Below, in pieces: positions 17,966-18,362 of a stretch of DNA of 19,156 nucleotides. The translations under genes were made by a program, and so were the position numbers. Positions within the stretch are counted from its first letter, which is position 1. Every line of letters starts with the position of its first letter. The stretch comes from a virus (lineage: Duplodnaviria > Heunggongvirae > Uroviricota > Caudoviricetes), in the IMG/VR virus record IMGVR_UViG_2548876862_000001, positions 1-19,156 of that record; one strand, given 5' to 3'. Under the pieces are notes generated by a model. It saw only the letters and a list, made by a program, of their open reading frames with translations. It was not told the origin of the DNA and did no database searches.

Positions 17966-17989
17966 AACCCGCTTAATCGCGGGTTTTTT
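17966..17989. terminator. Bidirectional rho-independent terminator between the convergent antirepressor and mnt-like genes
   Basis: AACCCGC (17966-17972) pairs with GCGGGTT (17979-17985) around loop TTAATC; T-run 17984-17989 on plus, A/U-rich flank on minus. The mnt-like stop (17973-17975) lies in the loop. Confidence 0.65.
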
Positions 17990-18230
17990 CTTTCCTTAGA
18001 ATTTCAGCCGCAACTTCTTTTACTCGTTCCGAGATTAATGAGGCCAGCCTCTCTTCTTCATCACGATACCCGCTTACAGGTGATGGTTTGGAGAGTGATT
18101 CTTCCATCGTAGCCACAATTTCGGAATTGATAGACCTGTTATTCATTTTTGCACGCTGCTTAATCTTAGCGTGCAACTCGTGTGTAAGCCTCAAGTGGAA
18201 CTGCGCCTCATCGTATTTGCTGTACATCAT
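17973..18230 (-). CDS. mnt: Mnt-like repressor (ribbon-helix-helix N-terminal domain)
   Basis: From ATG at 18228-18230 (minus): MMYSKYDEAQFHLRLTHELHAKIKQRAKMNNRSINSEIVATMEESLSKPSPVSGYRDEEERLA... matches P22 Mnt by recall (FNFRMP...NGRSMNSEL...SKPSPVTGYR). SD GGTGAGG lies 5 nt upstream. The track ORF extends to TTG 18311 with no RBS. Confidence 0.85.
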   Translation of the reverse strand: MMYSKYDEAQFHLRLTHELHAKIKQRAKMNNRSINSEIVATMEESLSKPSPVSGYRDEEERLASLISERVKEVAAEILRKEKTRD

Positions 18231-18362
18231 CAATGCCTCACCAAATGGGTGGAATGGCATCGTAAAACCTACTGTACAAATCAACAATCGTACCATTTCG
18301 GTATGTAACAAACACCAACCGTAGCCATGCTGCGGCCATTCCTTGTATCTGGAGCAAATTAA

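What the first reader, a model, noticed from the sequence alone, without database searches (positions are those of the whole stretch)
17966..18362. Mnt-like repressor placed next to the tailspike, with repeated AATGG/CCATT motifs in the intergenic region
In P22, mnt lies upstream of arc-ant and is divergent from it. Here the mnt homologue is downstream and convergent with the antirepressor genes, sharing a bidirectional terminator whose loop contains its stop codon, and is divergent from gene 9. The intergenic region 18231-18362 contains GGAATGGC (18251-18258) with its inverted copy GCCATTCC (18335-18342), and CCAAATGG (18241-18248) with CCATTTCGG (18293-18301). These are possible operator half-sites, which would place a repressor-controlled promoter directly upstream of the tailspike.
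Basis: partly seen in the sequence, partly recalled or inferred. Interest (0 to 1): 0.45.

Follow-up and report, generated by a model that had tools for sequence, protein, structure and literature searches.

The report
Orphan Mnt repressor module beside tailspike

Summary
The sequence facts are correct. An 85-aa Mnt homologue lies at 17973-18230 (-). Its stop codon sits in the loop of a bidirectional terminator (17965-17986). It is divergent from a P22-type tailspike gene that starts at 18363. All four quoted motifs are at the stated coordinates.

The layout is not unusual. Phages L/ST64T/ST104, SE1, 720R6, Brookers, Sf101, IME10, VSe13 and JEP4, and at least 104 E. coli genomes, have mnt directly upstream of gene 9. 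This has been published as the mnt-only 'ant moron'.

The proposed half-site pairs fail. An 8-bp inverted repeat arises in 9% of shuffles. Only 5 of 66 distinct relatives carry both arms. The right arm lies in the gene-9 leader shared by all P22-like phages.

The intergenic region is homologous to P22's Pmnt/Pant/Omnt control region. A 17-bp dyad, CGTACCATTTCGGTATG (18289-18305), sits exactly where Omnt sits in P22. It is single-copy per genome and keeps TACC-N5-GGTA in 59 of 60 distinct relatives. It co-varies with a distinct Mnt recognition strand (QFHLRL). The DNA-binding domain is under strong purifying selection.

The rightward, P22-Pant-equivalent promoter is degenerate. A Mnt-repressed tailspike promoter is therefore possible but unproven (about 25%).

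The parts
17965..17986 (.). Bidirectional intrinsic terminator. Stem AAACCCGC/GCGGGTTT, loop TTAATC, with an A-run on the left and a T-run on the right. The mnt stop codon (complement of 17973-17975) lies in the loop.
   Evidence: Found on both strands by the terminator scan. Folding energy -13.9 (+) and -15.8 (-) kcal/mol, z = -4.5 and -4.8. Sequence.
17973..18230 (-). mnt-like gene: 85 aa plus stop. It has an N-terminal ribbon-helix-helix domain with the recognition strand AQFHLRL, and a Mnt-type C-terminal region.
   Evidence: Translation. Pfam Arc at 3e-15. 1MNT at E=9e-16, aligned over residues 7-78. PHROG 795 at 7e-33. For N-domain codons, pN is 0.01-0.075 against pS of 0.28-0.89 compared with 11 relatives.
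18231..18252 (-). Predicted mnt 5' untranslated region. The Shine-Dalgarno sequence GGTGAGG is the complement of 18236-18242.
   Evidence: Read directly from the sequence. GATGCCTC is conserved in 12 diverged representatives. The length matches the P22 Pmnt-to-mnt distance. The start site itself is inferred.
18259..18287 (-). Predicted mnt promoter, equivalent to P22 Pmnt. The -35 hexamer is TTGTTG (complement of 18282-18287), followed by a 17-bp spacer and the -10 hexamer TACGAT (complement of 18259-18264).
   Evidence: It aligns column for column with the annotated P22 Pmnt, TTGAGA-17-TATCAT. GCATCGT and CAAT are invariant in 12 representatives. It matches only 7 of 12 consensus positions and was not called by the consensus scan. 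Inferred.
18254..18282 (+). Position homologous to P22 Pant: ATGGCA (18254-18259), 17-bp spacer, CAAATC (18277-18282). It is degenerate. An alternative weak rightward pair is TCGTAA (18260-18265), 17-bp spacer, AACAAT (18283-18288).
   Evidence: Alignment to P22 TTGACA-17-TATATT. The -10 equivalent lacks the final T in the window-type and phage L-type regions. The alternative pair was found by my own scan at 7 of 12.
18289..18305 (.). Candidate Mnt operator: the 17-bp dyad CGTACCATTTCGGTATG, with core TACC-N5-GGTA. It starts 1 bp from the Pmnt -35 hexamer. Its centre is about 45 bp upstream of the predicted mnt transcription start.
   Evidence: Same columns as P22 Omnt AGGTCCACGGTGGACCT and phage L AAGACCACCGTGGTCTT. 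Unique in the window and single-copy in the JEP4, Sf101 and VSe13 genomes. Thirteen variants all keep the core, and some are more symmetric. It is found with the QFHLRL N-domain in 59 of 60 distinct loci; the other locus has one substitution. Conservation drops from 0.85 to 0.54 at its right edge.
18318..18362 (+). Conserved gene-9 leader, called a 'boundary sequence'. It is shared by P22-like phages whatever lies upstream.
   Evidence: The same sequence lies downstream of ant in P22 and CUS-3. It is annotated bsq1 in CUS-3. 959 of 5426 E. coli genomes match some part of the query; the weaker hits listed match only this leader. Hairpin folding; pair counts.
18363..19156 (+). Tailspike gene (P22 gene 9 homologue). 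It runs off the end of the window.
   Evidence: Translation. Pfam Head_binding at 3e-66 over residues 4-114.

Best explanation
The interval is an 'orphan' immunity-I control module of a P22-like phage. It holds the mnt repressor gene with its terminator, the mnt promoter, and one 17-bp dyad operator (18289-18305). In P22 the same control region faces arc-ant. Here arc-ant is absent from that side, and the operator is followed after about 13 variable bases by the universal gene-9 leader.

The repressor belongs to a distinct specificity class. Its recognition strand is QFHLRL, against HFNFRM in P22 and QFNLRL in phage L. Its operator core is TACC-N5-GGTA, against GTCC-N5-GGAC and GACC-N5-GGTC.

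Proposed mechanism (inferred): a Mnt tetramer made in the lysogen binds this single site. The site abuts the -35 hexamer of the mnt promoter and covers the start region of the rightward promoter position. Binding sets the level of mnt itself and shuts off whatever rightward initiation remains. The tailspike is expressed mainly by late-operon read-through.

Shown: the homology, the position, the conservation, the co-variation with the N-domain and the purifying selection. Inferred: DNA binding, both promoters and the direction of regulation.
For: Homology to the P22 control region:
- The intergenic region aligns with the P22 mnt-arc region.
- The three operator classes share the same columns, with an invariant CAAT just before the 17-mer, CC at positions 5-6 and G at position 12; position 13 is G in all but Brookers.

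Link between operator and repressor type:
- Operator type follows the N-domain type. QFHLRL goes with TACC-N5-GGTA in 59 of 60 distinct loci. QFNLRL goes with AGACCAC in 9 of 9.
- Operator type does not follow the mosaic C-terminal domain. Locus L076 has a phage L-type N-domain and operator but a window-type C-terminus.

Conservation of the operator:
- The variants keep or improve the dyad. CATACCATTTTGGTATG has 7 of 8 symmetric pairs.
- There is one site per genome in JEP4, Sf101 and VSe13, and one in the window.
- Mean pairwise identity is 0.77-0.89 from the mnt start through the operator, and 0.54 just beyond it.

Selection on the protein:
- For the N-domain, pN is 0.01-0.075 against pS of 0.28-0.89.

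Distribution:
- The same gene order is present in many phages. It is described in PMC2629481 and PMC8022706.
Against: - No binding or transcription data exist for this class.
- Both predicted promoters are weak (7 of 12). Neither passed the consensus scan.
- In some relatives the Pmnt spacer is 15 bp, and other leftward promoter pairs score better.
- If the rightward promoter is dead and there is no ant target, the strong selection on the repressor and operator is not explained by autoregulation alone.
- A conserved inverted repeat (18231-37/18256-62) overlaps the predicted -10 hexamer and does not fit the model.
Confidence: 0.62

Rival explanations
1. A functional rightward promoter overlaps the 17-bp operator and transcribes the tailspike gene. 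Mnt keeps it off in the lysogen, so free tailspike does not strip the host O-antigen. On infection or induction the promoter adds to late-operon expression.
For: - P22 Pant lies at the homologous position, with Omnt over its start site.
- The literature cited in PMC2629481 links the P22 ant moron to control of tailspike level.
- A rightward pair, TCGTAA-17-AACAAT, ends exactly at the operator. It has the critical A at position 2 and T at position 6 of the -10 hexamer. T18288 is invariant although it lies outside the Pmnt -35 hexamer.
- This reading would explain the purifying selection on the repressor and operator without an ant target.
- No second operator exists in the three whole genomes scanned.
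Against: - The P22-equivalent -10 hexamer is CAAATC, TAAATC or TAACTC. It lacks the final T in the window-type and phage L-type regions.
- The alternative -10 hexamer has T instead of A at position 2 in the abundant Sf101-type variant, which reads CTCAAT.
- The -35 partners match 3 or 4 of 6 positions.
- The consensus scan found no promoter here.
Confidence: 0.25
2. Mnt acts in trans as an immunity factor. The prophage keeps Mnt to repress the antirepressor promoter of superinfecting or co-resident phages that carry the same operator. This would protect the prophage from induction.
For: - In P22, Mnt maintains lysogeny by repressing ant (established knowledge).
- At least five Mnt N-domain classes exist, which is the pattern expected of immunity specificities.
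- The repressor is under purifying selection.
Against: - Of the 119 IMG/VR stretches carrying this operator that were examined, none had an intact arc or ant gene to the right of it. One had an Ant C-terminal fragment.
- A scan for the operator outside its usual context gave 44 hits. That is about the chance expectation, and none was upstream of an ant gene.
- The antirepressor genes in this window have their own cI-like repressor and no operator copy.
Confidence: 0.08
3. GGAATGGC/GCCATTCC and CCAAATGG/CCATTTCGG are the half-sites bound by the repressor.
For: - The motifs are present.
- AATGG/CCATT occurs 4 times against 0.67 expected.
Against: - The inverted repeat is not significant (P = 0.09).
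- Both arms are present in only 5 of 66 relatives.
- There is no compensating change in deeper relatives.
- The right arm lies in a leader shared with phages that have other genes upstream.
- The half-sites would be 76 bp apart, unlike any ribbon-helix-helix operator known to me (own knowledge).
Confidence: 0.02
4. The module is a decaying remnant of an immunity-I region and has no present function.
For: - PMC8022706 raises this possibility for the phage L mnt.
- The Pant equivalent is degenerate.
- One Citrobacter copy has an in-frame stop codon.
Against: - pN/pS is far below 1 in the DNA-binding domain.
- The operator core is kept in 59 of 60 distinct loci, across Escherichia, Salmonella, Citrobacter and Serratia.
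- The gene is annotated as an intact CDS in the E. coli genomes listed.
Confidence: 0.03

Closest known systems
Phage P22 immI control region (mnt, Pmnt, Omnt, Pant)
   Same: - The repressor is homologous over its full length (1MNT, E=9e-16).
- mnt is transcribed leftward.
- A 17-bp dyad operator lies 1 bp from the Pmnt -35 hexamer.
- The CAAT block and the CC/GG positions of the operator are invariant.
   Different: - There is no arc, sar or ant to the right. The operator is followed by the gene-9 leader.
- The recognition strand is QFHLRL, not HFNFRM.
- The operator core is TACC, not GTCC.
- The Pant equivalent has lost its consensus -10 hexamer.
- The mnt terminator overlaps the stop codon, whereas in P22 it follows orf59a.
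mnt-only 'ant morons' of phages L, ST64T, ST104 and SE1
   Same: - The gene order is the same: mnt divergent from gene 9, with no arc or ant between them.
- A bidirectional terminator lies at the mnt 3' end in phage L.
- A single dyad operator lies at the same position.
- The Pant equivalent is degenerate (PMC2629481, PMC8022706).
   Different: - The N-domain and operator class differ: QFNLRL with AAGACCACCGTGGTCTT.
- The left-hand neighbours differ. Here a separate cI-like repressor plus two antirepressor genes are inserted between sieA and mnt.
P22 Arc repressor
   Same: Both have a ribbon-helix-helix fold. The strand pattern Q-F-x-L-R resembles Arc's PQFNLRW (alignment to pArc).
   Different: - The best match is Mnt, not Arc (9e-16 against 8e-6).
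- The protein has the Mnt C-terminal extension.
- Arc's operator lies between the -35 and -10 hexamers of Pant. The conserved dyad here lies at the Omnt position.

Membership tests
P22 Mnt repressor family | N-terminal ribbon-helix-helix (Arc-like) DNA-binding domain | tested here: met
   Pfam PF03869 at 3.2e-15 (56 bits against a cutoff of 20.4), residues 8-53.
P22 Mnt repressor family | Mnt-type C-terminal region beyond the ribbon-helix-helix domain. It is the tetramerisation helix in P22 Mnt. | tested here: met
   The phmmer alignment to 1MNT runs through residues 7-78 of the query and 3-74 of the 76-residue chain. It includes the KPSPVxGYR linker and the helix. The oligomeric state itself was not tested.
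P22 Mnt repressor family | A single 17-bp dyad operator adjacent to the mnt promoter | tested here: met
   The dyad at 18289-18305 occupies the same alignment columns as the annotated P22 Omnt. It is single-copy. It co-varies with the N-domain class. Binding was not tested.
P22 Mnt repressor family | The protein binds the operator as a tetramer and represses transcription. | not testable with these tools
   This needs EMSA or footprinting, plus reporter assays.
Complete P22-type immunity-I region (mnt-arc-sar-ant) | arc and ant genes transcribed from the promoter that the Mnt operator overlaps | tested here: not met
   The gene 9 ATG is 58 bp from the operator, with no ORF between them. None of the 119 related IMG/VR stretches examined has an intact arc or ant there.
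Complete P22-type immunity-I region (mnt-arc-sar-ant) | sar antisense RNA | tested here: not met
   No Rfam match below E=0.4 in 14900-19156.
mnt-only 'ant moron' (as in phages L and ST64T) | mnt is the only immI gene between genes 16 and 9 and is divergent from gene 9. | tested here: inconclusive
   mnt is divergent from gene 9, as in L, SE1, Sf101 and VSe13. However, this window also carries unrelated antirepressor genes with their own cI-like repressor to the left of mnt.

The most novel reading that the evidence does not exclude
The orphan Mnt and its private operator form a dedicated lysogeny switch for the tailspike gene. A weak promoter overlapping 18283-18305 transcribes gene 9 unless Mnt is bound. 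The need to keep an O-antigen-cleaving tailspike silent in the prophage would explain why repressor and operator stay under selection in hundreds of prophages that lack the antirepressor Mnt normally controls.
Probability: 0.22. Interest if true: 0.5.

Novelty: new member of a known kind. Interest (0 to 1): 0.3.

Why it matters
As it stands this is mostly clarification. The gene is an already-annotated Mnt homologue in a published type of arrangement, and the highlighted repeats are not functional sites.

Two things are added:
- A concrete operator for an uncharacterised Mnt specificity class. The pairing QFHLRL with TACC-N5-GGTA sits beside P22's HFNFRM with GTCC-N5-GGAC and phage L's QFNLRL with GACC-N5-GGTC. 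This is a natural series for studying how ribbon-helix-helix strands read DNA.
- Evidence that 'orphan' mnt genes next to tailspike genes are under purifying selection, not decaying. This sharpens the open question raised for phage L of what they regulate.

Tried and rejected
- **Shuffle test of the 8-bp inverted repeat.** P = 0.09, not significant.
Only the CCATTTCGG core survives in 66 close and 12 deep relatives.
- **More operator copies.** I searched the window and the whole JEP4, Sf101 and VSe13 genomes. No other site scored near the operator's 27-29 bits; the next best were 18.2 in VSe13 and 14.9 in the window.
- **Operator upstream of arc/ant elsewhere.**
96 had the tailspike to the right, and the rest were unrelated coding hits or truncated contigs.
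  - The scan without that context gave 44 hits, about what chance predicts. It included a repeated promoter-like segment in an unrelated phage group with no Mnt-like gene within 5 kb.
- **Rfam search for sar or other RNAs.** Nothing below E=0.4.
- **Consensus promoter scan.** No hit on either strand of 18231-18362. My own relaxed scan gives several equally weak pairs on both strands, so promoter direction cannot be settled from sequence.
- **Covariation test of the gene-9 leader hairpin.** 92% of cells are paired. The changes are almost all one-sided wobble changes and do not exceed the shuffles.
- In one search my tailspike query started at 18364 instead of 18363, so it was out of frame. The classification still works, because tblastn matches the same frame of homologous DNA.
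- **Literature.**
  - PMC286564 (Knight and Sauer 1989) is not held.
  - Statements about which Mnt residues contact DNA therefore rest on my own knowledge.

Full report
**Context**

The window is the late region of a P22-like (Lederbergvirus) phage or prophage. Escherichia phage JEP4 is the closest deposited record: 96% identity over 80% of 15400-19156.

Between the gene-16 homologue and the tailspike gene the order is:
- a SieA-like gene at 14963-15457 (-) (PHROG 7745);
- a cI-like HTH + S24 repressor at 15518-16159 (-);
- a promoter-like site at 16181-16209 (+);
- a small ribbon-helix-helix ORF at 16259-16432;
- two antirepressor-like genes at 16506-17132 (Bro-N + P22_AR_C) and 17221-17946 (PHROG 1726);
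- the mnt-like gene at 17973-18230 (-);
- the tailspike gene from 18363 (Head_binding, 3e-66).

**Checking the observation**

The factual statements hold.
- The 85-aa product matches Pfam Arc. It matches the solved P22 Mnt structure 1MNT at E=9e-16 across both its DNA-binding and C-terminal parts.
- It is 45% identical to P22 Mnt and 51% to the Mnt of phage L/ST64T.
- The hairpin at 17965-17986 is scored as a terminator on both strands. It folds at -13.9 and -15.8 kcal/mol.
- The mnt stop codon lies in its loop.

**The arrangement is common and published**

mnt lies immediately upstream of, and divergent from, the tailspike gene in JEP4, Sf101, VSe13, phage L, SE1, vB_EcoP-720R6 and Proteus phage Brookers.
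- At least 104 complete E. coli genomes carry 80% or more of 18100-18362.
- Villafane et al. 2008 (PMC2629481) describe 'ant morons' that contain only mnt in ST64T, ST104 and Para1.
- Zaworski et al. 2021 (PMC8022706) describe the same for phage L. They leave open whether that mnt has a new function or is a remnant.
- Phage L's record also annotates a two-way terminator overlapping the end of mnt.

**The proposed half-sites do not hold up**

- A perfect inverted repeat of 8 bp or more is found in 9.4% of dinucleotide shuffles of the 132-bp region.
- Among 66 distinct homologous regions, 58 keep GGAATGGC but only 5 have GCCATTCC. Most read GCGATTCC or GTGATTCC.
- In 12 deeper representatives the left arm changes to GGATAGGC, GGACAGGC, GGACTGGC or GGATAAGC, with no matching change on the right.
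- The right arm lies in the roughly 45-bp leader immediately upstream of gene 9. That leader is present downstream of ant in P22 (GCAATTCC there) and in CUS-3, where it is annotated as boundary sequence bsq1.
- 959 of 5426 E. coli genomes match some part of 18100-18362. The weaker hits listed cover only this leader, with no gene annotated under them.
- CCAAATGG is CCAGTTGG or CCAGTGGG in relatives.

**What the intergenic region is**

Set beside the P22 mnt-arc region, whose promoters and operators are annotated, the window region is plainly homologous.
- An invariant CAAT is followed by a 17-mer in every class.
  - P22: AGGTCCACGGTGGACCT, the annotated Mnt operator.
  - Phage L, SE1, 720R6 and Brookers: AAGACCACNGTGGTCTT and variants.
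  - This window: CGTACCATTTCGGTATG (18289-18305).
- All three share the scheme NNCC-N5-GGNN at the same positions.
- The P22 Pmnt hexamers, TTGAGA-17-TATCAT, correspond here to TTGTTG-17-TACGAT (complement of 18282-87 and 18259-64).
- The P22 Pant hexamers, TTGACA-17-TATATT, correspond to ATGGCA-17-CAAATC.

**Evidence that the 17-mer is the cognate operator**

1. *Specificity class.* Three N-terminal strand types occur: HFNFRM (P22, epsilon34), QFNLRL (L, SE1, 720R6, Brookers) and QFHLRL (this window and relatives).
   - In loci retrieved by protein similarity, QFHLRL goes with TACC-N5-GGTA in 59 of 60 distinct upstream regions. The exception has one substitution.
   - QFNLRL goes with AGACCAC in 9 of 9.
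   - The C-terminal domain is mosaic and shared between classes, and the operator follows the N-domain, not the C-domain.
2. *Dyad maintenance.* Thirteen operator variants keep the core. Several raise the symmetry: CATACCATTTTGGTATG has 7 of 8 symmetric pairs, and GTACC-N5-GGTAC appears in the L064 group.
3. *Uniqueness.* There is one site in the 19-kb window and one in each of the complete JEP4, Sf101 and VSe13 genomes.
4. *Footprint.* Among 12 representatives, the mnt N-domain differs at 28-89% of synonymous sites but only 1-7.5% of non-synonymous sites.
   - Mean pairwise identity is 0.77-0.89 from the mnt start through the operator.
   - It falls to 0.54 immediately to the right.

The repressor is therefore functional, and the conserved module ends at the operator.

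**Is there a repressor-controlled promoter facing the tailspike?**

By homology this is where Pant lies in P22. The P22 ant moron has been linked to control of tailspike level.

Against it:
- The Pant-equivalent -10 hexamer (CAAATC, TAAATC, TAACTC; TATATC or TGCATC in the phage L class) lacks the final T wherever arc-ant is missing, except in Brookers.
- The consensus scan finds nothing on either strand.

For it:
- A relaxed scan finds a rightward pair, TCGTAA-17-AACAAT, ending exactly at the operator. It scores 7 of 12, the same as the predicted Pmnt.
- T18288 is invariant although it lies outside the Pmnt -35 hexamer.

Sequence alone cannot decide. I put a functional rightward promoter at about one in four.

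mnt must have a promoter in this region, since gene 9 lies on the other side. The P22-homologous position is the best candidate. In some relatives its spacer is 15 bp, and other leftward pairs score higher.

**What the repressor is for**

No arc or ant follows this operator in the 119 IMG/VR stretches examined. One type carries only the last 110 codons of a P22-like ant, fused at the boundary sequence. A scan for the operator outside its usual context returned about the number of hits expected by chance, none at an ant promoter.

The antirepressor genes in this window belong to a separate inserted module with its own cI-like repressor and have no operator copy.

This leaves three options:
- autoregulation together with silencing of residual rightward transcription (my preferred reading);
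- a real tailspike promoter under Mnt control (rival 1);
- trans-immunity (rival 2).

Pure decay is contradicted by the selection data.

**Comparison with known systems, and novelty**

The protein meets the sequence-level criteria for the Mnt family. The locus does not meet those of a complete immunity-I region. The gene is already annotated as mnt in JEP4 and as an Arc-family protein in E. coli genomes.

I found no paper that holds both 'Sf101' and 'mnt'. Neither of the two papers I read on mnt-only morons mentions an operator in the passages read.

The operator assignment and the three-class comparison may therefore be new, but they are incremental. I file the finding as a new member of a known kind, with interest 0.3.

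Noticed in passing
window 18319-18335 (+): There is a possible RNA hairpin, CCGTAGC-CAT-GCTGCGG, in the conserved gene-9 leader. Across 20 diverse leaders, 92% of cells pair. Nearly all changes are one-sided and G-U compatible on the + strand (for example CCGCAGC/GCTGTGG and CGCATC/GATGTG). There is only one double change, and the result does not exceed the shuffles.
   Followed up: partly
window 18231-18237 and 18256-18262: The inverted repeat CAATGCC/GGCATCG brackets the predicted mnt 5' UTR (z = -3.1 when folded as minus-strand RNA). 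Phage L-type regions have TGATGCC/GGCATCA. Proteus phage Brookers has TTTGTC/GACAAA at the same place. The 5' arm overlaps the predicted -10 hexamer, so the repeat would not be in the mnt mRNA. Its role is unexplained.
   Followed up: partly
L004 (P22) 5033-5180, compared with window 17221-17946: The P22 spacer between ant and gene 9 holds a duplicated boundary sequence, ACCGTAGCCA(C/T)GCT. This flanks a fragment that reads ELEGETYKKIVGRKAN, which is like an internal stretch of this window's second antirepressor gene. It looks like a scar of past exchange at this site.
   Followed up: no
L001 (JEP4) 4630-4900; L261 (Kapi1) 4054-4577; loci L019, L034, L037, L084: The conserved leader and the first 4 or 5 tailspike codons are followed by insertions. 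JEP4 has an AT-rich stretch of about 290 bp. Kapi1 has an HNH endonuclease gene on the opposite strand. Four IMG/VR loci share the same junction sequence as Kapi1. In JEP4 and Kapi1 a full tailspike gene follows the insert.
   Followed up: partly
window 15518-17946: A separate antirepressor module lies to the left of mnt. It has a cI-like HTH + S24 peptidase repressor (-), a divergent promoter-like site at 16181-16209, a 57-aa ribbon-helix-helix-like ORF and two antirepressor genes. It is absent from Sf101, and VSe13 has only a 96-aa gene annotated as an antirepressor there. It therefore looks like an insertion beside the mnt-operator-gene 9 unit.
   Followed up: partly
L216 7577-7594 and 8092-8109, and about 20 related IMG/VR loci: The 17-mer TGTACCGTTTCGGTATG occurs twice, 515 bp apart. 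It lies inside repeated promoter-like segments just upstream of two small genes in an unrelated phage group. No Mnt-like (QFHLRL) gene lies within 5 kb. The total number of hits is about what chance gives.
   Followed up: partly
L215 (CUS-3) 1197-2235; L261 (Kapi1) 2569-3002: CUS-3 has two tandem mnt genes with different N-domains (PQVNLRL and HFNFRM). It also has an unannotated Arc-like ORF inside its 'bsq2' boundary sequence. Kapi1 has another N-domain type (PQINIRIS). That makes at least five Mnt N-domain classes in P22-like phages.
   Followed up: no
L089 (Citrobacter sp.) near 3001: This copy of the window-type mnt has an in-frame stop codon (MYSK*DEAQ). Its operator also has a core substitution (CGTACTATTTCGGTATG). 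It is probably a decaying copy.
   Followed up: no
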